Shown here: one piece after another, positions 20,878 through 51,248 of the stretch
Position numbering within the stretch: position 1 is the first letter of the stretch
How the letters are laid out: every line of letters begins with the position of its first letter
Assembly: GCA_036556085.1 (NCBI GenBank)
Contig: DATBKE010000116.1
Coordinates: 2,209 to 66,208 of the forward strand
Direction: 5' to 3'
Source of the DNA: Acidimicrobiia bacterium
GTDB taxonomy: Bacteria; Actinomycetota; Acidimicrobiia; Spongiisociales; ZC4RG35
Length of the DNA: 64,000 nt
Made by a program: the position numbers and the translations under genes
The notes under the pieces: generated by a model
Database searches by the model: none
The model's input: the letters and a program-made list of their open reading frames with translations, nothing else
What the model was told of the DNA's origin: nothing

Positions 20878-21680
20878 CCCGAGCCGAGCTCCCTAGCTCT
20901 TTGGGCGGCGGCTCGCACCGCGTCCTCGACCAACGCCCGAAATCCGCGTTCCTCCAGGACGTGGACGGCGGCGGCCGTGGTTCCCCCCGGAGAAGTCACC
21001 TGCGATCGAAGCTCGAAAGGTCCTCGCTCCGTTTCGGTAAGGAGATGGCCGGCGCCCCGGATCGTCTGATTGACAAACGATTCGGCAATATCGCGGGGCA
21101 GGCCTTCGCGCACGGCCGCTTCGGTGAGAGCCTCGGCCAGAAGGAAGACGTAGGCCGGACCCGTGCCGCTGACCGCAGTGACGGCGTCGAGGAGACCCTC
21201 GTCAAGTTGCTGCACGCCCCCGACGGCCTCGAGCACCAGCCGCGCCTTCTCGAGGTCTTGTTCCCCAGCATGGCGGCCAGCCGCCATTCCGGTAACCGCT
21301 TCCTTCACCAAGGCCGGCGTGTTCGGCATTGCCCTCACCACGGCGACGTCGCCCAGAGCCGACTCGTAGATCGAGGTCGGGACCCCGGCGGCGATCGAGA
21401 GCAAGACCTGTCCAGGCCGGAGCGCTCCCTTCAGCTCCCCCAGAAGGGCCGCAACATCGCGCGGCTTCACTGAGATAACGACGACGTCGCGACCGGCAGC
21501 GCCGTGGGGTGAGAGCGCCACCTCGATCCCGGTGCGTTGCTGAAGCTGAGCCACTCTCTCCGGTCGTCTCACGACCAATGTGAGCTCTGAGGGTTCCCAC
21601 CCTGCGTTGAGCAGTCCGGCGGCGAGAGCCTCGCCCATCGCGCCGACTCCGACGACGGCGACCGTAGGGCGCGTGGTCAT
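20874..21680 (-). CDS. proC: pyrroline-5-carboxylate reductase
   Basis: 268 aa with VAVVGVGAMGEALAAGL Rossmann motif and the C-terminal SPGGTT motif. Confidence 0.9.
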   Translation of the reverse strand: MTTRPTVAVVGVGAMGEALAAGLLNAGWEPSELTLVVRRPERVAQLQQRTGIEVALSPHGAAGRDVVVISVKPRDVAALLGELKGALRPGQVLLSIAAGVPTSIYESALGDVAVVRAMPNTPALVKEAVTGMAAGRHAGEQDLEKARLVLEAVGGVQQLDEGLLDAVTAVSGTGPAYVFLLAEALTEAAVREGLPRDIAESFVNQTIRGAGHLLTETERGPFELRSQVTSPGGTTAAAVHVLEERGFRALVEDAVRAAAQRARELGSG

Positions 21681-22303
21681 CTTGGCGAGTATATGGACGG
21701 GTCGCTGGTGGCCAGATTGGTGCGGATCATCTCGACCACCGTCGCCAGCGCATTGGGGTTGTATCCCTCGGGGATGATGAGGTCCGCGTAGCGCTTCGAA
21801 GGCTCGACGAACTCGAGGTGCATCGGGCGCACGGTGGAGAAGTATTGGTTCAAGACCGAATCGAGATTGCGACCCCGTTCGTCGATGTCGCGTTGGATGC
21901 GACGCGCCAATCGCAAATCGGCGTCGGTGTCGACGTAGATTTTGAGGTCGAGATGAGAGCGAAGGTCGGCGTCGGCCAGCACCAGGATCCCCTCCACTAT
22001 CACGACCCGGGTGGGCTCGGCTGGAACCGTTCGCTCGGCGCGCAGATGGGCGGAGAAGTCGTAAGTGGGGATCTCGGTGGCCTCACCCTTGCCCAACAGG
22101 ATGAGGTGTTCGATCAGGAGCTCAGTCTCGAGAGAATCCGGATGGTCGTAATTGACCGCTGCTCGCTCGGCAAACGCCAGCTCCGGTCGATGCCGGTAGT
22201 AGGCATCGTGCTGGATGATCCTGACCCCAGACAAAGTGGAGGCCACCGCCGCGGCAATAGTGGTCTTGCCGGAGCCGGATCCGCCAGCGATCCCGATCAC
22301 CAT
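21677..22303 (-). CDS. udk: uridine kinase
   Basis: 208 aa with P-loop IGIAGGSGSGKTT and YDHPDS and DTDADLRLARRIQRD motifs. Confidence 0.9.
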   Translation of the reverse strand: MVIGIAGGSGSGKTTIAAAVASTLSGVRIIQHDAYYRHRPELAFAERAAVNYDHPDSLETELLIEHLILLGKGEATEIPTYDFSAHLRAERTVPAEPTRVVIVEGILVLADADLRSHLDLKIYVDTDADLRLARRIQRDIDERGRNLDSVLNQYFSTVRPMHLEFVEPSKRYADLIIPEGYNPNALATVVEMIRTNLATSDPSIYSPR

Positions 22304-39684: not shown

Positions 39685-40379
39685 CGGCCGTCCTCGTCAC
39701 TGGCGCCTCCGGTCTCCTTGGGCGGCGCGTCGTCCAATCCCTGCAGAGTCGAGATCTCTCGGTTGCAGCCGCACCCCGCGACTTGTCTCAGGTTGACGTC
39801 TCGCCTGTCGATGCGGTGGTGATCTGTGCGACTGATTCCAGCCGGCCCTTCGAAGTCGACCTCGGTCAAATCGACTTTCTCGTCACCCACACCGAAGCTC
39901 ACCTCGTCTATCCCTCGATCGTCGGCTGTGATCTCATGCCGTGGCCGTACTATGAAGCCAAGGCCACCTGCGAGGAGAGCCTTCAGAGCCGGGCTAGTCG
40001 GTGGACGATCATCCGCGCCACCCAGTTCCATCAACTGATCTGGGGTTGGTACACCGCTCCTACCCGCTGGCCCTGGCTGGCGGTCCCCGTCGAGACGCGA
40101 TACCAGGTACTTGATCCTGTGGTTCATGCCGAGGCGCTGGCGGCGGCCGTCTCCGACCAGATGTTCGGCCGCCTCCCTGACGTCGGCGGTCCGTTCGCCT
40201 ATGAGGCGCGGGAGCTGGCCCGCTCCTGCCAGCGGGCGATCGGACGAAAGCGGCCGGTTCTGACCTACAACAAGCGAGGACTGTTCGGCGCCGCCCTTCG
40301 CGCCGGCGCCAACCTCACCCCCAATCGCGCCGGTGGCGAGACCTGGAACGAATTTATTGCCAGGCGAATGAAGCGCTAG
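39591..40379 (+). CDS. NAD(P)H-binding NmrA/SDR-like protein
   Basis: Rossmann motif VLVTGASGLLGRRV. The only canonical start, GTG 39591, overlaps the upstream gene by 94 nt. CTG 39681 overlaps its TGA (CTGA) and would give LTAVLVTGASG. Confidence 0.7.
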   Translation: MEGLGNLGHGWRRSLVPPSIHARAKPNPDPLTAVLVTGASGLLGRRVVQSLQSRDLSVAAAPRDLSQVDVSPVDAVVICATDSSRPFEVDLGQIDFLVTHTEAHLVYPSIVGCDLMPWPYYEAKATCEESLQSRASRWTIIRATQFHQLIWGWYTAPTRWPWLAVPVETRYQVLDPVVHAEALAAAVSDQMFGRLPDVGGPFAYEARELARSCQRAIGRKRPVLTYNKRGLFGAALRAGANLTPNRAGGETWNEFIARRMKR

Positions 40380-41497
40380 CGGGTCGAACCAAACCAGATC
40401 CGGACGCCGTCGGGATCATCGACTCCAAAGACCGTGTCGCCCCATGCCTCGACTTTGAGCTCTCGGGTTACCGGCACTCCCCCGGCAACGAGATGCTCGT
40501 GCCAGGCCACGACATCTTCGACAAAGAATCCCAGCTCGAGTCCGGAAGGACGAGGCCAGCTCGACCCCGGCGGGGGACCGAGCAGCTGCAGCGTCTCCCC
40601 GCCGGCAGCCTCCAACACTGCGCCGGAACCGGTCTCACGATCCCATCCGGTGAGTCGGCGGAACCCGAGGATGCGCTCGTAGAAGTCGACCGAGCGCCCA
40701 AAGTCCGAGACCCGCAGCAAAGCCCGCAGCCCTTCCACCCGACCCGGGGCACGGGTCGGCGCTTCGCCGGTGATGACCCGCCTCGCCTCGGCGATCGTGA
40801 AGCGCCCGGCAGTTACCTCACGCCCGACAATCACCCCTGCCAACCGCCGGGTGCCGACGCTCAGTCGGCGCATGGTGGCGATGTCGTTGAGATCGCGCAC
40901 CCCTCCCGACGCAATGACGGGCTCTTCCACCGCCTTCAACGCCTCGGCCAACACCGCGAACCCGGGGGCTTCGGTCAAGGCGTCGCGCTTTGCCTCCCCA
41001 ATCAGAAATGCGGCCGCTCCGGCCGAAGACATCTCAACCAGGGCCTCCTCGAGATACCGACCCGAGTGTCCTGTCCAGCCGCCGGTGACCACCTCGCCGT
41101 CCGGGAGGACATCGAGGGCGACGGCAACTTTGTCGTGGAAGTTGCGGCACGCCTCCCAGACCATGTTCTGGTTCTCGATCGCCGCCGTCCCCATCACCAC
41201 CCGCCAGGCGCCGTTGTTGATCAGGCGCTCGAGCTCGGACTCAGATCGAACTCCGCCCGCGACTTGGACCGGGATAGTGGCGGCTTTGAGGATCTCGTCG
41301 ATCAGCGGGCGATTGCGGTACTCGCGCCGAATGGCGGCGTCGAGATCGACCACATGCAGGTAGTCAACTCCAAGTCGTTCCCATGACAGGCAGCGCCCGA
41401 TGGGATCGGCGTCGAGATGAACGACCTCCCGCAGATCGCCGTGAGTCAAACGAACGGAGCGCCCGTCCAGGATGTTGACCCGGGCGTAGAGGTCCAT
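40376..41497 (-). CDS. fusion protein: HisA/HisF-family (beta/alpha)8 barrel + C-terminal VOC/glyoxalase domain
   Basis: 373 aa. Residues 1-245 show the HisA-like pattern (LHVVDLDAA, VQVAGGVRS, VALDV, ASGGVRDLNDI, GVIVGRE). Residues 255-373 are VOC-like (LRVSDFGRSVDFYERILGF...DPDGVRIWF). Confidence 0.85.
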   Translation of the reverse strand: MDLYARVNILDGRSVRLTHGDLREVVHLDADPIGRCLSWERLGVDYLHVVDLDAAIRREYRNRPLIDEILKAATIPVQVAGGVRSESELERLINNGAWRVVMGTAAIENQNMVWEACRNFHDKVAVALDVLPDGEVVTGGWTGHSGRYLEEALVEMSSAGAAAFLIGEAKRDALTEAPGFAVLAEALKAVEEPVIASGGVRDLNDIATMRRLSVGTRRLAGVIVGREVTAGRFTIAEARRVITGEAPTRAPGRVEGLRALLRVSDFGRSVDFYERILGFRRLTGWDRETGSGAVLEAAGGETLQLLGPPPGSSWPRPSGLELGFFVEDVVAWHEHLVAGGVPVTRELKVEAWGDTVFGVDDPDGVRIWFGSTR

Positions 41498-41500
41498 GCT

Positions 41501-43339
41501 TCATTCTGCCTTCTGTTTGCCCGTCTCGCCTTCGATACCGAGCGTGGTCTCGACCGCCTCGATGGTCTGCCCCCCTTTTGCCACCGGGGCAAAGAGATCT
41601 CCGAACCGGGCGAGGCGGTCCCAGAAGTTGCCGATGTTGAAATCACCGTTGCGGAGGGTGTCGACCTCTTTCCAGGTGATCGGAAAGGAGATCGGAGCTC
41701 CGGGTCGTGGGCGAACCGAGTAGACCGAGGCGATGGTCTGACCGTAGGCGTTGCGGTTGTGGTCGATGAAGACCTTGCCTTTGCGTTTGGGGATGTCCCA
41801 CTCCATGGTGAGATCAGCGGGGTTGGCAGCGACGAGGAGCTTGCCGATTGCTTCCACCAGCCGCCTTACGCGCGAGTGTCGATACTTGGCCTCGATCGGC
41901 ACGTAGACGTGAAGCCCTTTGGAACCGGAGAGCTTGGGATATCCATTCAGGCCCAGTCGGCCGAGCAGTACTTCGAGGAGCTTCGCTCCGGCCACGACCT
42001 GTTCCCACTCCGCCCCTTCGGCTGGATCGAAATCAAAGATCGCTAGATCGGGATGTTCGAGGTTCCCGGCCCGGGAGTGGAAGGGGTGGATCTCGATGCA
42101 GCCCATGTTGGCGAACCACATCAGCGACTCCCGGTTGGAGGCGAGCAGAAAGTCCTGAGCTCCCCCCGACGAGTCCGACGGCACCGCCGCCGTCTCCATC
42201 CAGGCGGGCTGATGTCCGGGTGCCCGCTTCTCGTAAAAGGTCGGACCATTGATGCCGTCCGGATATCGGGACATGGAAATGGGTCGGTCGCGCAAGTGAG
42301 GCAACAACACTGACGACACCGAGGCGTAGTACTGAATGAGATCGCCCTTGGTGAAGCCCTCGGGGAAGAAGGGCTTGTCAAGGTTCGAGAGCTTGAGCGG
42401 ACGGACTCCGGGAACGAGAAGGTTCTTACCGTCCTTCTTCCCCCTGACCTTGGCCGGGAAATCGATCCGGCCGGAGTCGATGTTTCGTCCTTCGCTCTTG
42501 CTGCTCGGTCCCTTGCTGATCGTTTCCTCGAGCTCGTTTTGGATGGCATCGTGGCTTGATTGCTCTCGCGCCTCGGAGATCACCACCATCGACAGCTCGT
42601 CGTGGAGGGCGGCCTCGATCAGCGGTCCGATCCGGAGGGTGCCTTCGCCGTAGGGGAGGTGTCTCACTTCCCCACCGGCGTTGAAGAGGTTGTCGGTGAA
42701 TTGGGTTTGCAGCGGGTCGATCATCCAGCCGGGAAAGCTCCCGCGAATGAAGCCGATAACCGATTCGAATGCTTCGACGCTGGTGAGGGCTCCGCCGGTC
42801 TGGGCGTGGACGTGAGCCCAGTCGACGATCGGCCGGATGAAGCTGAACTCGTCGGCCAGAAGGGCGATATCACCGAGGGTTCCGAAGTTCCGCTCGGCCC
42901 CGCTCGTCTCGAGCCCGAGACCGACCCCCATCTGCTCGATCTTGGGGCTGATCCTTCGCAGTCGCTCCTGGATCATTCCGGTCAACACTTCGGGGTCGCG
43001 GCCCTGGGCGGCACCGAAGTGGGCGCAGATGATGCGACTGCCGAGAGCCCGGCCCAGCTTCATCGTGTGCTCGAGGGCGGCCAGGCATTGTTTCGCCCTG
43101 TCCTCGTCTTCGACGGTGAGTACGGCGAAGTAGGGAGCGTGGACAGATACCCAGATGTCGCGCTCTCGGGCGAGATCGCCGAACCGTTGACATCGCTTCT
43201 CCTTCCAGGGGAAGGCGGTGACGAAGGCGAGCTCGAAAGCGTTGTGGCCCTTCTTGACGAGATCGTCGAGGAACGCGGCGTCGTCTTCCGGTTTGCCGCG
43301 TGGAAGGCCCGAGATCCCGAAGCGAATCTGGGCCGGCAT
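41501..43339 (-). CDS. fusion protein: endonuclease IV-like AP_endonuc_2 TIM barrel + LigD-type primase-polymerase (AEP) domain
   Basis: 612 aa. N-terminal part has SVHAPYF, ICAHFGA, GLETSG, DWAHVHAQTGG, VRHLPYGEGTL, VVISEA. C-terminal part has KLSNLDKPFFPEG, AIFDFDP, SGSKGLHVYVP, FIDHNRNAYGQT. Confidence 0.9.
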   Translation of the reverse strand: MPAQIRFGISGLPRGKPEDDAAFLDDLVKKGHNAFELAFVTAFPWKEKRCQRFGDLARERDIWVSVHAPYFAVLTVEDEDRAKQCLAALEHTMKLGRALGSRIICAHFGAAQGRDPEVLTGMIQERLRRISPKIEQMGVGLGLETSGAERNFGTLGDIALLADEFSFIRPIVDWAHVHAQTGGALTSVEAFESVIGFIRGSFPGWMIDPLQTQFTDNLFNAGGEVRHLPYGEGTLRIGPLIEAALHDELSMVVISEAREQSSHDAIQNELEETISKGPSSKSEGRNIDSGRIDFPAKVRGKKDGKNLLVPGVRPLKLSNLDKPFFPEGFTKGDLIQYYASVSSVLLPHLRDRPISMSRYPDGINGPTFYEKRAPGHQPAWMETAAVPSDSSGGAQDFLLASNRESLMWFANMGCIEIHPFHSRAGNLEHPDLAIFDFDPAEGAEWEQVVAGAKLLEVLLGRLGLNGYPKLSGSKGLHVYVPIEAKYRHSRVRRLVEAIGKLLVAANPADLTMEWDIPKRKGKVFIDHNRNAYGQTIASVYSVRPRPGAPISFPITWKEVDTLRNGDFNIGNFWDRLARFGDLFAPVAKGGQTIEAVETTLGIEGETGKQKAE

Positions 43340-43429
43340 TTCGGCGAGGATAAAGGAGGGCTGGCGGAACTAGTCAGGTTGTGTGTAATCGCGACCACCC
43401 TGACGTGTCTTGCTCGACGTGCCGAAGAG

Positions 43430-43582
43430 ATGGGGATGAGCACGACGACTCTCGCCACCAAACAGATGATTCCCCTCCTGGGGATGATGTGGCGCGGGAT
43501 GTGGGGCGCCACTGCTGCCACCGCAGCTGCTCAGGTCATCGCTGCCGACGAAGACAGCGACGACGAAGAAACCGCCGCCTGA
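43430..43582 (+). CDS. candidate small protein (50 aa), Met/Trp-rich with acidic tail
   Basis: MGMSTTTLATKQMIPLLGMMWRGMWGATAATAAAQVIAADEDSDDEETAA. High third-position GC. Sits in an otherwise empty 290-bp intergenic region. No clear SD. Confidence 0.3.
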   Translation: MGMSTTTLATKQMIPLLGMMWRGMWGATAATAAAQVIAADEDSDDEETAA

Positions 43583-43629
43583 TTCCTCGCCGTTCATCGA
43601 ACGGCCTCCCATACCTAGGGTGACCCCTG

Positions 43630-47984: not shown

Positions 47985-49547
47985 ATGACCAGCACCCCTC
48001 GCCGGCTGGCTTTGGTGATCGCCACAACCGAATACGACGACAGCCGGCTGCTCCGCTTGGGAGCGCCTTTGGCCGACGCCCTCGAATTGGCCCGGACTCT
48101 GAAGGAGCACGGTGACTTCGACGTCGAAACGCTGATCAATGCCGAGGCGCAAACGGTCCAGAGACGCATTGAGCGCTTCTGCAAAGCGGGACGGCAGAGC
48201 GCCGACACCATCCTCGTCTACTTCACCGGACACGGAGTCAAAGATGATGACGGCAACCTTTACTTTGCTCTTCGTGACACGGACCGCGACCTATTGAGGA
48301 CGACCGCTGTCTCCGCCGAATTGTTGGCGGCGGTGATGGACGAGAGCCCTGCCCGTTCCCAGCTCCTGATGCTCGACTGCTGCTACTCCGGCGCTTATGC
48401 CCGTGCGCTGCGCCCCAAAGGCGAAGAAGACGCCGGGCTCGGTGACCAGTTCGCCTCTTCCCCGGCAGCTCGGGGTCGGGTGGTGCTGGCGGCCTCGGGA
48501 GCCATCGAGCAAGCGTGGGAGGAAGACGCCGGTTCCATCTACACCCGAGCAGTGGTGGACGGGATACGGACCGGCCGCGCCGACCTCGACGGCGATGGCC
48601 GCATCACCGCCAGCGAACTCCACGCCCACGTCAGCGAGAATCTCCGAAGCGAAGGGCGGCAGACTCCGCGCAAGTTCGAATTCGACGATGCCGGGAGCCT
48701 GCTGGTCGCCCGTCGGGGTGAGGCGCCACCAATCGTTCCGAGCATGCCCGCCGCAAAGAGAGCAAAGCGACCCGCGGTCCGAGAAAGGCAGATCACTCCC
48801 TCAAATCGAAAGGCTCCGGCCTGGATCCCTGGGATGATGGCGGTGGCCCTCGCCGCGGTGCTCGGAACCCTGTGGCTGAGCGGAGGGATTGGCTTCCTTC
48901 CTTCGCCCTTGATCGAGGTCACCACCACGGCCGCCGTAGTGGTGCCACCACCTCCAACTGCCGTTGCATCGGCGACCACAGTCAGCACCGCAGTTGAGTG
49001 GCAGGTAGCGATCGACGAGCAGTTCACCGTTAACGACCGGGAATGGGCCGAGGGCGATTTCGGCGACACCTCCGCTGACTGGTTCTTCCGATTCGTCGGG
49101 GGAACGTACGAGGGGGGTTTCACCACAGGGACGTCCGATCTGACTTACTACAGCACGGTTCCGTTTACTCCCGAATCGAGGCCCTTGTACATCGAAACTG
49201 AAACCACGAGCTATTCGGCAGGCAGCCAATGCGGAATTGCGTTGCAAAACGCGGATGGATCGCTGACGGCAGTAGGAATAGGCAGTGGCGAGGTCGTCGC
49301 CCGTCATCATGTTGAGAACGAGATCGCCAATTCCGGGTCGTGGCCGGTACCTTTAGCAGGACCAACTGAGACCCAACTAGGGCTTTGGATCGACGGGTCA
49401 ATTGTCACGATCTATATCGATGACCGCGAGCTGGCGAGCTTCGATGAGCCTTCGCTCACAGACATCTCCGCGATTGGAGTCGGCCTGATCGGTGGGACCG
49501 ACGTGTATTGCGGGTTCGATTACATCGTCGCTCAAGAAGGTGACTGA
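47985..49547 (+). CDS. caspase-family (C14) peptidase with TM helix and extracytoplasmic beta-rich (ConA/LamG-like) domain
   Basis: 520 aa. RRLALVIATTEYDD, His in ILVYFTGHG, Cys in LLMLDCCYSGAYA. K/R-rich segment, then TM AWIPGMMAVALAAVLGTLWLSGGIGFL, then a C-terminal domain of about 200 aa. Confidence 0.85.
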   Translation: MTSTPRRLALVIATTEYDDSRLLRLGAPLADALELARTLKEHGDFDVETLINAEAQTVQRRIERFCKAGRQSADTILVYFTGHGVKDDDGNLYFALRDTDRDLLRTTAVSAELLAAVMDESPARSQLLMLDCCYSGAYARALRPKGEEDAGLGDQFASSPAARGRVVLAASGAIEQAWEEDAGSIYTRAVVDGIRTGRADLDGDGRITASELHAHVSENLRSEGRQTPRKFEFDDAGSLLVARRGEAPPIVPSMPAAKRAKRPAVRERQITPSNRKAPAWIPGMMAVALAAVLGTLWLSGGIGFLPSPLIEVTTTAAVVVPPPPTAVASATTVSTAVEWQVAIDEQFTVNDREWAEGDFGDTSADWFFRFVGGTYEGGFTTGTSDLTYYSTVPFTPESRPLYIETETTSYSAGSQCGIALQNADGSLTAVGIGSGEVVARHHVENEIANSGSWPVPLAGPTETQLGLWIDGSIVTIYIDDRELASFDEPSLTDISAIGVGLIGGTDVYCGFDYIVAQEGD

Positions 49548-50301
49548 CAACCTCGCCGCCGCGGCTGAAGTGTTGAAGGGAGCACTTCCGATCCTGGCTT
49601 TCACCGGAGCTGGGATCTCAACCGAGTCGGGCATCCCCGACTTCCGCGGCCCTAACGGCCTCTGGACCAAGATGGATCCGGCCGATTTCACCATCGAGAA
49701 GTATCTGGCCGATCCCGAGCGGCGGAAGCGAGGATGGAGGATGCACGCCGAGGGATCGCTGTGGGGAGCACGGGCGACCCTGACTCCAAACGCCGCTCAC
49801 CTCGCCCTGGTCGACCTCTATCGAGATCAGCGTCTCGTCGGTTGCGTCACGCAGAACGTCGACGGCCTCCACCTCCAAGCTGGTCTTCCCGAGGAAGCGG
49901 TTGCCGAAGTGCATGGCCACGTTCGCGCCGTTCGTTGCTACGACTGCGGGCTCACCTGGCCCACCGAGGAAATCCTGGTGCGGGTTGATCAAGGTGAGGA
50001 GGAGCCGCGGTGTGAGATCTGCAGAGGGGTCATCAAAACCACCACCGTTATGTTCGGCGAGAATCTCCCACAGGCAATCGTCGATAAGGCTTGGGCGCTT
50101 GCCTCCCGGGCTCGATCGGTCCTCGCCATTGGCACCACCCTCGGGGTGTGGCCGGCGGCGGAGATTCCCTTTTCCATGGTTCAGTCCGGAAAGCCCCTGG
50201 TAATCGTCAACGAGGGCGAGACCGAGATGGATCGCCTGGCGACCGTCCGACTCGAGGGAAAGGCGGGGGCGACGGTGAGCGAGTTGGCCAGGAGCATTTA
50301 A
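49540..50301 (+). CDS. Sir2-family NAD-dependent protein deacylase
   Basis: GTG 49540 overlaps the caspase 3' end by 8 nt. FTGAGISTESGIPDFRG, TQNVDGLH, catalytic EVHG, and Zn ribbon CYDC...CEIC. Confidence 0.9.
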   Translation: MTDNLAAAAEVLKGALPILAFTGAGISTESGIPDFRGPNGLWTKMDPADFTIEKYLADPERRKRGWRMHAEGSLWGARATLTPNAAHLALVDLYRDQRLVGCVTQNVDGLHLQAGLPEEAVAEVHGHVRAVRCYDCGLTWPTEEILVRVDQGEEEPRCEICRGVIKTTTVMFGENLPQAIVDKAWALASRARSVLAIGTTLGVWPAAEIPFSMVQSGKPLVIVNEGETEMDRLATVRLEGKAGATVSELARSI

Positions 50302-50303
50302 CG

Positions 50304-51248
50304 GTGAAGCTGATTCCTTTGGAGCAAGAAATGCTCCCCGCCCTTTACGACCTTTATCGCCGGATCGAGATCTTCGACCAGATCCCGATCGTCACCCCTT
50401 GGGAGGAGATCGCCGAGATGGCAGACGATCCCCATCTCGACCTACCCAACGACGGTCGCCTGGCTCTGATCGACGACCAGGTCGTGGGCTTCTGCCACGT
50501 CATCCGTCGGCCGGGAGAGTCCGATCATGCCCGCGCCTTCCTCGTCGGCGGGGTTGACCCCGACTATCGCCGGCAAGGCATCGGCAGCGCGCTGCTTTCC
50601 TGGGAGATGGATCGGGGGGCACAGATATTGCGCCGGGAGTCGCCCCACGTTCCCCGCTTCCTCCGCACCTTTGCCTTCGACTTCGAACAGGCCGCCATCG
50701 CCCTCTATGAGCGCCATGGGCTTACTCCGATTCGGTCCTTCGCCGAGCTGATCCGGCCCCTGCATGAGCCTGTACCCACAAGACCAGTTCCAGGCATCGA
50801 CATCGTCAGCTGGGAGGACGGACGTTATGAAGAGGCTCGGCTGCTGCTGAACCTGGCCTTCCGCGACCATTGGGGTTCGACTCCCCGCGACGGCGCTGCC
50901 TGGGACCATTTCATCAGAGGCACTGGCACCCGTCTCGATCTTTCGTGCATGGCGCTGGCCGGCGATCGCCTGGTTGGCGTGACGGTCAATGCTCATTTCC
51001 CATCCGACCAGGAGATCACCGGGCGCCGAGATGGCTGGATCGGTCATCTCGGCACCCACCCCGAATTCCGCAAGCGCGGGATCGCTTCGGCTCTGATCGA
51101 GCGGTCTTGCGCTCAATTCAGTGAGGCTGGCTTCGACCACGCCCTGATCGGCGTCGACTCCGCCAGCCTCACCGGTGCCTATCGCCTATACGAAAGTCTC
51201 GGCTTCCGACCGCTGCATCGACAGGTGCAGCATCAGATCGAGGTCTAA
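50304..51248 (+). CDS. tandem-GNAT N-acetyltransferase (MshD/mycothiol-synthase-like architecture)
   Basis: GTG 50304, 2 nt after the Sir2 stop. 314 aa with two GNAT cores (VDPDYRRQGIGSALL and THPEFRKRGIASALI). Confidence 0.8.
   Translation: MKLIPLEQEMLPALYDLYRRIEIFDQIPIVTPWEEIAEMADDPHLDLPNDGRLALIDDQVVGFCHVIRRPGESDHARAFLVGGVDPDYRRQGIGSALLSWEMDRGAQILRRESPHVPRFLRTFAFDFEQAAIALYERHGLTPIRSFAELIRPLHEPVPTRPVPGIDIVSWEDGRYEEARLLLNLAFRDHWGSTPRDGAAWDHFIRGTGTRLDLSCMALAGDRLVGVTVNAHFPSDQEITGRRDGWIGHLGTHPEFRKRGIASALIERSCAQFSEAGFDHALIGVDSASLTGAYRLYESLGFRPLHRQVQHQIEV

What the first reader, a model, noticed from the sequence alone, without database searches (positions are those of the whole stretch)
41501..43339. 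Endonuclease IV-like TIM barrel fused to a LigD-type primase-polymerase: a possible self-contained clean-and-fill DNA repair enzyme
Seen in sequence: this is one uninterrupted 612-aa ORF.
- Residues 1-285 carry, in order, motifs that correspond to the metal-ligand motifs I recall for Nfo/AP_endonuc_2 enzymes: SVHAPYF, ICAHFGA, GLGLETSG, IVDWAHVHAQTGG, VRHLPYGEGTL, MVVISEA.
- Residues 320-600 are an unmistakable LigD polymerase (AEP) domain: KLSNLDKPFFPEG, TKGDLIQYY, AIFDFDP metal site, SGSKGLHVYVP, FIDHNRNAYGQT.

Established knowledge: canonical LigD combines Pol, 3'-phosphoesterase and ligase modules. Stand-alone Prim-Pol paralogues exist in actinobacteria, and mycobacterial Prim-PolC together with LigC has been linked to excision-repair gap filling. 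Endo IV nicks AP sites and removes 3' blocks.

Inference: the 3'-end-cleaning role of the LigD PE domain appears to be taken over by an Endo IV-type domain. That would make this a Rosetta-stone style fusion linking AEP polymerases to base-excision or 3'-block repair. No Ku and no ATP-dependent ligase are present in the window. I do not recall this architecture being described.
Basis: partly seen in the sequence, partly recalled or inferred. Interest (0 to 1): 0.8.

Follow-up and report, generated by a model that had tools for sequence, protein, structure and literature searches.

The report
Endo IV-like nuclease fused to LigD-type polymerase
A soil actinobacterial lineage encodes one protein joining an Endonuclease IV-like DNA-end-cleaning domain to a LigD-type repair polymerase, an uncharacterised, mislabelled architecture suggesting a "clean the end, then fill the gap" repair enzyme.

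Summary
Window 41501-43339 (minus strand) is one 612-aa ORF with an AP_endonuc_2 TIM barrel (res 25-267, E=4.5e-23) and a LigD primase-polymerase domain (res 330-583, E=3.4e-87). It is not an assembly artefact. At least 216 protein clusters and at least 80 species-level Acidimicrobiia MAGs carry the same architecture. Four clusters carry the reverse order (Pol then TIM).

The N-domain is a nuclease-type barrel, not a sugar-isomerase type:
- Foldseek's best hits are Endo IV (TM 0.73-0.78).
- Eight of the nine Endo IV metal ligands and the DNA-inserting Tyr are conserved family-wide.
- The ninth ligand is His or Gln (Gln in this window).

It still fails the curated Nfo HMM cut-off and the strict Nfo signatures, so it is an uncharacterised sister family. 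The Pol domain keeps its catalytic Asp triad and 5'-phosphate pocket but lacks the Prim-PolC Loop 3 extension. No Ku, ligase or PE domain lies within about 10 kb in 86 loci. The conserved operon partner is an odd HisA-like/VOC protein.

Best reading: a bifunctional enzyme that cleans 3' ends or incises AP sites and then fills the gap, with ligation done by a separate enzyme. Its activity and pathway (BER/SSB versus NHEJ) are untested. I found no published description; databases mislabel it "NHEJ DNA ligase".

The parts
41501..43339 (-). Complete 612-aa fusion ORF (ATG at 43339-43337, TGA stop at 41503-41501)
   Evidence: GC3 of 0.79 is typical of coding frames in this window.
42512..43339 (-). 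N-terminal Endo IV-like (beta/alpha)8 barrel, residues 1-276 (Pfam AP_endonuc_2 residues 25-267 = 42539-43267). Candidate metal ligands: H67, H107, E144, D173, H176, Q211, E224, H227, E256. Y70 corresponds to Nfo Y72.
   Evidence: Pfam. AF2 model with pLDDT 87.5 and pTM 0.86. Foldseek top hits are Endo IV. Ligand mapping.
42398..42511 (-). Inter-domain linker, residues 277-314. It is partly conserved (R285, F294-P295, G304) and a beta-hairpin is predicted at 299-309.
41564..42397 (-). LigD-type AEP primase-polymerase domain, residues 315-592 (Pfam PF21686 residues 330-583 = 41591-42352). Catalytic D436, D438, D526; loop-2 R519; 5'-phosphate pocket K322, K331; SGSKGLH motif 471-477.
   Evidence: All listed residues are invariant in A1.
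41504..41563 (-). Short C-terminal tail, residues 593-612. It is too short to hold the 43-aa alpha8 + Loop 3 extension of Prim-PolC.
40376..41497 (-). Operon partner: a 373-aa HisA/HisF-related TIM barrel (Asn replaces the HisA catalytic Asp) fused to a VOC/glyoxalase domain. Its ATG lies 3 nt after the fusion's stop, and a GAAGG Shine-Dalgarno-like motif sits inside the fusion's last codons.
   Evidence: It lies downstream on the same strand in 74 of the 76 TIM>Pol loci that have enough flank.

Best explanation
The gene encodes a bifunctional DNA-repair enzyme.

Proposed mechanism:
- The N-terminal domain is a metal-dependent phosphodiesterase of an uncharacterised sister family of Endonuclease IV. 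It is proposed to produce a clean 3'-OH in one of two ways: incising 5' of abasic sites, or removing 3' blocks (3'-phosphate, 3'-phosphoglycolate, 3'-unsaturated aldehyde) left by oxidative strand breaks or by glycosylase-lyases.
- The tethered LigD-type AEP polymerase docks on the downstream 5'-phosphate through its conserved Lys pocket and fills the short gap with rNTPs or dNTPs.
- A separately encoded ligase seals the nick.

The likeliest setting is Ku-independent repair of single-strand breaks and base-excision intermediates, like the mycobacterial EndoIV / Prim-PolC / LigC pathway. Use at double-strand ends is not excluded.

Shown here: domain identities, conserved active-site residues, recurrence of the fusion in both domain orders, and absence of Ku, ligase and PE nearby.

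Inferred: the substrates, the hand-off between domains, and the pathway.
For: - Both domains score far above the Pfam cut-offs, and the ligD_pol equivalog-domain model is passed at 240.5 bits against a cut-off of 214.7.
- The N-domain model is confident (pLDDT 87.5).
- Foldseek ranks T. maritima Endo IV first (E=9.5e-14). TM-scores are 0.73-0.78 for Endo IV/Apn1, 0.62-0.69 for sugar epimerases and 0.58-0.67 for UVDE.
- An alignment bridged through 26 stand-alone relatives to E. coli Nfo puts H67, H107, E144, D173, H176, E224, H227 and E256 on Nfo H69, H109, E145, D179, H182, D229, H231/232 and E261, and Y70 on Y72.
- These positions are at least 97% conserved in 216 TIM>Pol fusions, 4 Pol>TIM fusions and 86 stand-alone proteins.
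- In NCBIfam the N-domain and nine of its relatives hit only Nfo and CbiR models, both phosphodiesterases, and never a sugar isomerase.
- The Pol domain keeps the Asp triad, the loop-2 Arg and both 5'-phosphate Lys residues.
- The fusion exists in both orders within one TIM subfamily.
- At least 80 species genomes carry it at a stable chromosomal locus.
- There are no Ku, PE or ligase-domain hits in 1.3 Mb of flanks plus the window.
- In mycobacteria EndoIV co-purifies with LigC and was the best 3'-processing nuclease for Prim-PolC/LigC BER in vitro (PMC5663958).
Against: - No activity has been measured.
- The N-domain fails the curated Nfo threshold (20.9 vs 129.65 bits) and all three strict Nfo signatures.
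- Sequence-only searches against PDB are insignificant.
- In the window protein the Nfo-H216 ligand is Gln, as in 110 of 216 fused orthologues, and D229 is replaced by a Glu with shifted spacing. Metal content and chemistry may therefore differ.
- CbiR shows that this branch of the superfamily can act on non-DNA phosphodiesters.
- The Pol domain lacks the Loop 3 that adapts Prim-PolC to gaps, so it resembles NHEJ-type polymerases.
- The only conserved neighbours are small-molecule-type enzymes (HisA-like/VOC, aldehyde dehydrogenase), not repair genes.
- The inter-domain geometry is not confidently predicted (pTM 0.53).
- Whether these genomes contain Ku or ATP-dependent ligases could not be checked.
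Confidence: 0.62

Rival explanations
1. It is an NHEJ accessory enzyme. Ku and a stand-alone ATP-dependent ligase are encoded elsewhere in the genome. The fusion supplies the polymerase and, through the Endo IV-like domain, the 3'-end resection that the LigD phosphoesterase (PE) domain normally performs at double-strand breaks.
For: - The Pol domain is as similar to the Methanocella NHEJ polymerase (192.7 bits) as to Prim-PolC (190 bits).
- It lacks the gap-specialising Loop 3, like NHEJ PolDom.
- No PE domain is seen in any of the 86 loci, which fits functional replacement.
- NHEJ components encoded as separate genes are known (PMC5663958 introduction; PMC7719229).
Against: - There are no Ku or ligase hits within about 10 kb in 86 loci.
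- The fusion sits in a housekeeping-type syntenic block.
- Whether the genome contains Ku at all is unknown.
Confidence: 0.22
2. The N-domain is not a DNA nuclease. It is a small-molecule phosphodiesterase or sugar-phosphate enzyme working with the co-transcribed HisA-like/VOC protein (and perhaps the adjacent aldehyde dehydrogenase) in a metabolic or salvage pathway. Under this reading the polymerase domain has a separate role or a regulatory one.
For: - Pfam places the domain in the 'xylose isomerase-like TIM barrel' family.
- CbiR, a cobamide phosphodiesterase, is a weak second-best family for the relatives.
- The HisA-like/VOC gene lies downstream in 74 of 76 loci and appears translationally coupled.
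- The aldehyde dehydrogenase gene is conserved in 61 loci.
Against: - The Endo IV-type nine-residue site and the DNA-inserting Tyr are conserved.
- Endo IV gives the best structural matches.
- No sugar-isomerase model is hit.
- Covalent fusion to a DNA polymerase in both orders is hard to explain for a metabolic enzyme.
- The reversed fusions lack the HisA-like neighbour.
Confidence: 0.1
3. It is a UVDE-like or nucleotide-incision enzyme. The barrel nicks 5' of bulky, UV-induced or oxidised bases, and the polymerase then carries out strand-displacement synthesis (alternative excision repair).
For: - UVDE appears among the weak profile hits to PDB (E about 0.09).
- One relative (P0162) has a weak UvdE Pfam hit.
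- UVDE also has a three-metal site, and Endo IV itself performs nucleotide incision (both statements rest on established knowledge).
Against: - Foldseek TM-scores to UVDE (0.58-0.67) are lower than to Endo IV.
- The window protein has no UvdE Pfam hit.
- The ligand pattern matches Nfo position for position.
Confidence: 0.05
4. It is an artefact: two adjacent genes merged by a sequencing or assembly error.
For: None found.
Against: - The same uninterrupted architecture appears in at least 216 clusters and at least 80 independently assembled species genomes, including long-read chromosomes.
- Linker residues are conserved.
Confidence: 0.01

Closest known systems
Endonuclease IV (Nfo / Apn1; AP endonuclease family 2)
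   Same: - Same (beta/alpha)8 fold, and the best Foldseek match (TM 0.73-0.78).
- Eight of nine trinuclear-site ligands and the Tyr72 equivalent are conserved at matching strand ends.
   Different: - About 16% identity.
- Fails TIGR00587 (20.9 vs 129.65 bits) and all three strict family signatures.
- H216 is Gln in the window protein and His or Gln across the family.
- D229 is replaced by Glu with a one-residue shift.
- It is fused to a polymerase.
- It belongs to a separate, uncharacterised clade whose stand-alone members (DPANN archaea and others) are named only 'TIM barrel protein' or 'deoxyribonuclease-4'.
LigD polymerase domain / stand-alone NHEJ polymerase (Mtb PolDom 2iru, Methanocella Pol 5dmu)
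   Same: - Full-length match to PF21686 and TIGR02778.
- The catalytic Asp triad, loop-2 Arg, 5'-phosphate Lys pocket and SGxxGxH motif are conserved.
   Different: - It is not joined to a ligase or PE domain.
- It is not next to ku or a ligase in any of 86 loci.
- Its partner is an Endo IV-like barrel instead.
Mycobacterial LigC / Prim-PolC / EndoIV excision-repair complex (Plocinski et al. 2017, PMC5663958)
   Same: The same pairing of activities, Endo IV-type 3'-end processing followed by AEP gap filling, is achieved there by protein-protein association.
   Different: - Here the two activities are covalently fused.
- The Pol lacks the Prim-PolC-specific alpha8 + Loop 3 extension.
- No LigC gene is adjacent.
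- The nuclease is not an orthologue of mycobacterial EndoIV (5zhz is only a weak hit).
LigD phosphoesterase (PE) domain
   Same: It would be a functional analogue: a metal-dependent 3'-phosphatase/phosphodiesterase that prepares 3'-OH ends for a LigD-type polymerase or ligase (established knowledge).
   Different: - The fold is unrelated.
- No PE domain was detected in the protein or in any of the 86 loci.
- Replacement of PE is an inference and was not tested.
CbiR cobamide-remodelling phosphodiesterase; MJ1311 (3wqo)
   Same: They are members of the same nuclease/phosphodiesterase-like branch of the AP_endonuc_2 superfamily and appear as weak hits.
   Different: - Scores are far below cut-off.
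- CbiR acts on a small molecule, and MJ1311 is uncharacterised.
- Neither is fused to a polymerase.

Membership tests
AP_endonuc_2 / xylose isomerase-like TIM barrel superfamily (PF01261) | Match to the family HMM above the gathering score, and a (beta/alpha)8 fold | tested here: met
   82.7 bits against a cut-off of 31.1. The AF2 model is an eight-stranded barrel with pLDDT 87.5.
Endonuclease IV (Nfo), TIGR00587 | Score above the curated Nfo HMM cut-off | tested here: not met
   20.9 bits against 129.65. The relatives also fall short at 19-57 bits.
Endonuclease IV (Nfo) | Nine metal ligands of the trinuclear site (E. coli H69, H109, E145, D179, H182, H216, D229, H231, E261) | tested here: inconclusive
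   Seven are identical. D229 is replaced by an invariant Glu with shifted spacing. H216 is Gln in the window protein, and 110 Gln / 106 His among the fused orthologues.
Endonuclease IV (Nfo) | The three strict family-2 AP endonuclease signature patterns (recalled from memory, then validated on E. coli Nfo) | tested here: not met
   All three match E. coli Nfo at the expected positions. None matches the window protein or any of the 220 fusions. Signature 1 matches 9 of 86 stand-alone relatives.
Endonuclease IV (Nfo) | AP-endonuclease / 3'-diesterase activity on DNA | not testable with these tools
   This needs biochemistry.
Sugar isomerase/epimerase branch of PF01261 | Closest sequence and structure relatives are isomerases or epimerases with a simple E-D-H-E type site | tested here: not met
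   NCBIfam returns no isomerase or epimerase model for the N-domain or for nine relatives. Foldseek TM-scores are 0.62-0.69, against 0.73-0.78 for Endo IV. The two extra His residues on beta3 and beta4 and the E..H hairpin are present.
UVDE (PF03851) | Match to the UvdE HMM, with UVDE as the best structural match | tested here: not met
   No UvdE hit for the window protein. TM-scores are 0.58-0.67.
LigD polymerase domain (PF21686 / TIGR02778) | HMM match above cut-off, plus the catalytic Asp triad and the 5'-phosphate pocket | tested here: met
   292.7 bits (cut-off 27.4) and 240.5 bits (cut-off 214.7). D436, D438, D526, R519, K322 and K331 align to the Mtb PolDom catalytic and pocket residues and are invariant.
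DNA ligase D (full LigD, TIGR02776), the name given by databases | Presence of an ATP-dependent ligase domain, and a score above cut-off | tested here: not met
   241.8 bits against 373.2, covering only the Pol part. There is no tblastn hit to the LIG or PE regions of a bona fide LigD. The database label 'NHEJ DNA ligase' is a misnomer.
Prim-PolC (LigC-associated BER polymerase) | Conserved C-terminal extension of about 43 aa (alpha8 + Loop 3, residues 294-336) | tested here: not met
   The alignment to 5op0/6sa0 ends at chain residue 292-297. Only 20 residues remain in the window protein, and the orthologues end at the same place.
Prim-PolC (LigC-associated BER polymerase) | Operonic association with ligC | tested here: not met
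   No ligase-domain hit in the window or in 85 related loci.
Bacterial NHEJ system | Ku encoded in the same genome, usually near ligD | tested here: inconclusive
   No Ku within about 10 kb in 86 loci. The rest of these genomes could not be searched.
Known anti-phage defence systems (PADLOC) | Match to a defence-system protein model | tested here: not met
   No families matched for the fusion or its operon partner.

The most novel reading that the evidence does not exclude
The conserved two-gene operon is a previously unknown four-domain repair module. It comprises the Endo IV-like nuclease and AEP polymerase, followed by a HisA-like barrel (catalytic Asp replaced by Asn) fused to a VOC/glyoxalase domain. 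Under this reading the second protein binds or detoxifies the sugar-phosphate or aldehydic products released at damaged termini (for example 5'-dRP, 3'-unsaturated aldehyde or ribose-derived lesions), or recognises them in DNA. That would give an uncultured soil lineage a Ku-independent pathway for oxidised or sugar-damaged strand breaks.
Probability: 0.12. Interest if true: 0.85.

Novelty: new variant of a known kind. Interest (0 to 1): 0.6.

Why it matters
Bacterial LigD-type polymerases are mostly thought of as NHEJ parts. Their role in excision repair rests on one mycobacterial study that used separate proteins. Here a recurrent covalent fusion, found in both domain orders, joins such a polymerase to an Endo IV-like nuclease with no Ku or ligase nearby. 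That is independent genomic evidence that 3'-end cleaning and AEP gap filling form one functional unit, and it offers a single polypeptide in which the hand-off can be studied.

The finding also does three other things:
- It defines an uncharacterised sister family of Endonuclease IV, with stand-alone members in DPANN archaea and other groups, and a natural His/Gln polymorphism at one metal ligand.
- It shows a systematic database mis-annotation: proteins with no ligase domain are called "NHEJ DNA ligase".
- It identifies an unexplained conserved partner (a HisA-like/VOC protein).

Tried and rejected
- phmmer of the N-domain alone against PDB gave nothing significant. A 10-sequence profile gave only weak hits: MJ1311 E=0.013, UVDE about 0.09, Endo IV 0.2-0.5.
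- hhalign of the N-domain profile against the single E. coli Nfo sequence gave a spurious alignment at 1.4% probability and was discarded. It was replaced by a MAFFT/HMM alignment bridged through 26 stand-alone relatives.
- Model coordinates are not exposed to the sandbox, so the ligand cluster could not be checked geometrically.
- The context of the nearest stand-alone relative, P0124, contains no repair genes.
- The contexts of the reversed fusions contain no Ku or ligase. One of them has an MPG-type glycosylase and a PolX 9-10 kb away, which is too far to count as linkage.
- PADLOC returned no defence-system match for the fusion.
- Seven literature searches found no description of this architecture. 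The Antarctic Dry Valley paper describes a different fusion, RMMBL nuclease with LigB. Sharda et al. mention 20 extra domains in Ku/LigD proteins, but the supplements held here contain no AP_endonuc or PF01261 entry; one of those files was truncated.
- The full-length AF2 model gives no confident domain docking (pTM 0.53), so I make no claim about channelling geometry.
- Two independent recruitments of the barrel: rejected as unproven. The TIM domains of both fusion orders form one clade, so the two orders support coupling but not independent origins.
Full report
**1. Observation**

The ORF lies at exactly the stated coordinates but on the minus strand. It spans 41501..43339, encodes 612 aa, starts with ATG and ends with TGA.

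Pfam finds AP_endonuc_2 ("xylose isomerase-like TIM barrel") at residues 25-267 (82.7 bits, cut-off 31.1, E=4.5e-23). It finds LigD_Prim-Pol at residues 330-583 (292.7 bits, E=3.4e-87). NCBIfam's ligD_pol equivalog-domain model is passed at 240.5 bits against a cut-off of 214.7. The specific Nfo model TIGR00587 reaches only 20.9 bits against 129.65.

**2. Not an artefact, and not rare**

- A search of 5.8 billion proteins returned 2046 hits. The best 120 are all about 600 aa, carry PF01261+PF21686, and are 62-96% identical to the window protein.
- A scan of GTDB species-representative genomes found 341 relatives. The best 80 are all full-length fusions in Acidimicrobiia-type MAGs, including complete long-read chromosomes. 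No cultured isolate is among those 80.
- Independent assemblies at 90-96% identity match residues 1-612.
- Linker residues R285, P295 and G304 are invariant.
- Sources name the protein "non-homologous end-joining DNA ligase" or "bifunctional NHEJ protein LigD", although it has no ligase domain.

**3. What kind of barrel is the N-domain?**

Sequence alone is weak against PDB. An AlphaFold2 model built from 10 orthologues is confident (pLDDT 87.5, pTM 0.86) and is an eight-stranded beta/alpha barrel.

| Foldseek target group | TM-score |
|---|---|
| Endo IV / Apn1 | 0.73-0.78 |
| MJ1311 | 0.69-0.74 |
| Tagatose/psicose epimerases | 0.62-0.69 |
| UVDE | 0.58-0.67 |

T. maritima Endo IV ranks first and second (E=9.5e-14).

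An exhaustive HMMER search of 1.84 billion representatives with the N-domain found 623 representatives at E<=1e-3. Many are stand-alone proteins of about 275 aa. In NCBIfam these relatives hit only deoxyribonuclease IV models and the CbiR phosphodiesterase model, all below cut-off, and no sugar isomerase.

I aligned the window N-domain, 26 of these relatives and E. coli Nfo (fetched from MG1655). The columns for Nfo H69, H109, D179, H182, H231/232 and E261 are invariant. Those for E145 and D229 (Glu here) are at least 90% conserved.

| Window residue | Nfo ligand or residue | Conservation |
|---|---|---|
| H67, H107, E144, H176 | H69, H109, E145, H182 | 100% |
| D173, E224, H227, E256 | D179, D229, H231/232, E261 | 97% or more |
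| Y70 | Y72 (recalled as the Tyr that inserts into the DNA minor groove) | 214/216 TIM>Pol, 4/4 Pol>TIM, 82/86 stand-alone |
| position 211 | H216 | 110 Gln / 106 His in TIM>Pol; His in all Pol>TIM; His in 75/86 stand-alone |

These counts come from 216 TIM>Pol fusions, 4 Pol>TIM fusions and 86 stand-alone proteins. The window protein has Gln at position 211.

Three strict family-2 AP-endonuclease signatures, recalled from memory, match E. coli Nfo at the expected positions. They match none of the fusions.

Conclusion: this is a nuclease/phosphodiesterase-type barrel with an Endo IV-like trinuclear-site constellation. It belongs to a distinct and uncharacterised sister family, not to Nfo proper.

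**4. The polymerase domain**

| PDB entry | Protein | Bits |
|---|---|---|
| 5dmu | Methanocella NHEJ polymerase | 192.7 |
| 5op0 / 6sa0 | M. smegmatis Prim-PolC | 190 |
| 2iru | Mtb LigD PolDom | 145.5 |
| 2fao | Pseudomonas LigD | 141.8 |

Aligned to Mtb PolDom, the catalytic aspartates map to D436, D438 and D526. The loop-2 arginine maps to R519, and the two 5'-phosphate-pocket lysines to K322 and K331. All six are invariant among 18 orthologues. The Mtb residue numbers come from memory and agree with the chain numbering after a 3-residue offset.

[quoted passage not shown] The window protein has only 20 residues after the aligned core, and the orthologues end at the same place. The domain is therefore a competent LigD-type AEP polymerase of the NHEJ-core type, not a Prim-PolC orthologue.

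**5. Both domain orders exist**

P0130 has LigD_Prim-Pol at residues 30-281 and AP_endonuc_2 at 347-581. Three further clusters (P0271-P0273) are collinear with it over 97-99% of their length at 47-51% identity.

On a neighbour-joining tree of the barrel domain:
- The four Pol>TIM proteins form one clade.
- That clade and the TIM>Pol group together form a 33-tip clade.
- Only 2 of the 77 stand-alone representatives fall inside it.

One barrel subfamily is therefore persistently tied to this polymerase in either order. That argues for functional coupling. It does not prove independent recruitment.

**6. Genomic context**

I used a bona fide Ku and a PE-LIG-POL LigD from Cupriavidus pBB2 as tblastn queries against the whole window and 85 related loci (1.3 Mb). 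There is no hit to Ku, PE or the ligase domain; only the Pol part matches. Pfam on window genes between 23 and 59 kb agrees. The reversed fusions also lack Ku and ligase within 10 kb. PADLOC gives no defence-system match.

The locus is a stable chromosomal block shared with a 64%-identical relative. The shared genes include aldehyde dehydrogenase, LPG synthase, AhpC, biotin carboxylase and DUF4230.

The one tightly linked gene is the downstream 373-aa HisA/HisF-related barrel fused to a VOC/glyoxalase domain:
- It is on the same strand in 74 of the 76 TIM>Pol loci with enough flank, and effectively abutting in 59 of them.
- In the window its ATG lies 3 nt after the fusion's stop, behind a GAAGG motif.
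- The upstream genes are not conserved (2-10 loci).
- The partner is itself lineage-specific and uncharacterised.
- It has Asn where HisA has its catalytic Asp.
- It is absent next to the reversed fusions.

**7. Mechanism**

The best-supported reading has three steps.
1. The Endo IV-like domain makes a ligatable or extendable 3'-OH, either by AP-site incision or by removing 3'-blocking groups.
2. The tethered AEP polymerase, anchored on the downstream 5'-phosphate, fills the short gap.
3. A separate ligase seals the nick.

This mirrors the published mycobacterial pathway. There EndoIV co-purifies with LigC and was the most effective 3'-processing nuclease for Prim-PolC/LigC repair of FPG-generated gaps (PMC5663958).

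- Shown here: domain identities, conserved catalytic residues, recurrence of the fusion, and absence of Ku, ligase and PE nearby.
- Inferred: the substrates, the hand-off between domains, and the pathway.

The main rival is a role in NHEJ in which the barrel replaces PE. It is favoured by the absence of Loop 3 and weakened by the lack of any ku or ligase linkage. It cannot be excluded, because the rest of these genomes could not be searched. A metabolic role for the barrel is suggested only by the HisA-like/VOC and aldehyde dehydrogenase neighbours. It is disfavoured by the ligand set, by the structural matches and by the polymerase fusion itself.

**8. Novelty and verdict**

Seven full-text searches found no description of this architecture. 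The closest published fusions are different ones, for example RMMBL nuclease with LigB.

The finding is a new domain architecture built from known repair modules. Its nuclease belongs to an uncharacterised Endo IV-like family. It is widespread in uncultured soil Acidimicrobiia and systematically mis-annotated. I rate it a new variant of a known kind, with interest 0.6. It is a good Rosetta-stone lead with clear experiments, but it is not categorically new and its function is so far untested.

Noticed in passing
window 40376-41497 (-): The operon partner of the fusion is a 373-aa HisA/HisF-related TIM barrel fused to a VOC/glyoxalase domain. All six family members examined have Asn where E. coli HisA has its catalytic Asp7 (RVNILDG vs ALDLIDG), while the second catalytic Asp is kept. 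The family is lineage-specific to Acidimicrobiia MAGs and has no known function.
   Followed up: partly
window 47985-51248 (+): A 520-aa caspase-like Peptidase_C14 protein (weak PADLOC 'caspase' hit, 36 bits) is followed by an overlapping SIR2-family ORF and a double-GNAT acetyltransferase ORF, about 5 kb from the fusion. This could be a defence or regulatory gene set. It is not conserved next to the fusion in relatives.
   Followed up: partly
L003 11932-12735 (-) and L005 12338-13141 (-): Next to the reversed Pol>TIM fusions, on the opposite strand, lies a second stand-alone 267-aa AP_endonuc_2 gene. It has a full nuclease/phosphodiesterase-type motif set (HAPF, VVHP, CLDTSHA, VHLSDN, DDH, LELN). 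Its best NCBIfam hit is CbiR (37 bits, below cut-off). It belongs to a different subfamily from the fused barrel.
   Followed up: partly
L005 about 21142-21917 (-): A Pur_DNA_glyco (MPG-type) glycosylase gene and a PolX (HHH_8 / thumb / PHP) gene lie 9-10 kb from one reversed fusion. Both are BER-related, but they are too distant to count as linkage.
   Followed up: no
protein P0125 (374 aa): This apparent stand-alone relative (43% identity) has a low-complexity C-terminal tail that looks like an out-of-frame translation of a Pol domain. It is probably a frameshifted fusion gene rather than a true stand-alone protein.
   Followed up: no
fusion residue 211 (window 42707-42709, -): There is a natural His/Gln polymorphism at the position aligned to Endo IV ligand H216. 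Among TIM>Pol orthologues 110 have Gln and 106 have His. All reversed fusions and most stand-alone relatives have His. This may reflect a different metal preference at site 2.
   Followed up: partly
L006 2638-6851 (+): Upstream of the closest stand-alone barrel gene (P0124) there is a run of about ten similar-sized ORFs of roughly 90 aa with no Pfam hits.
   Followed up: no
record titles (e.g. L032, L034, L039, L043): Several MAGs that carry the fusion at about 64% identity are labelled 'uncultured Acidobacteriota' (one is labelled 'Boseongicola'). Their fusion-gene matches sit in the same identity range as the Acidimicrobiia-labelled MAGs, and L039 (same contig as L001) shares the window's gene order. 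The submitter taxonomy is probably wrong.
   Followed up: no
window 43340-43629: A 290-nt intergenic region separates the fusion from a divergently transcribed gene for an F420H2-dependent quinone reductase-like protein. No sigma-70-type promoter consensus was found there, and there is no obvious Shine-Dalgarno motif before the fusion's ATG.
   Followed up: partly
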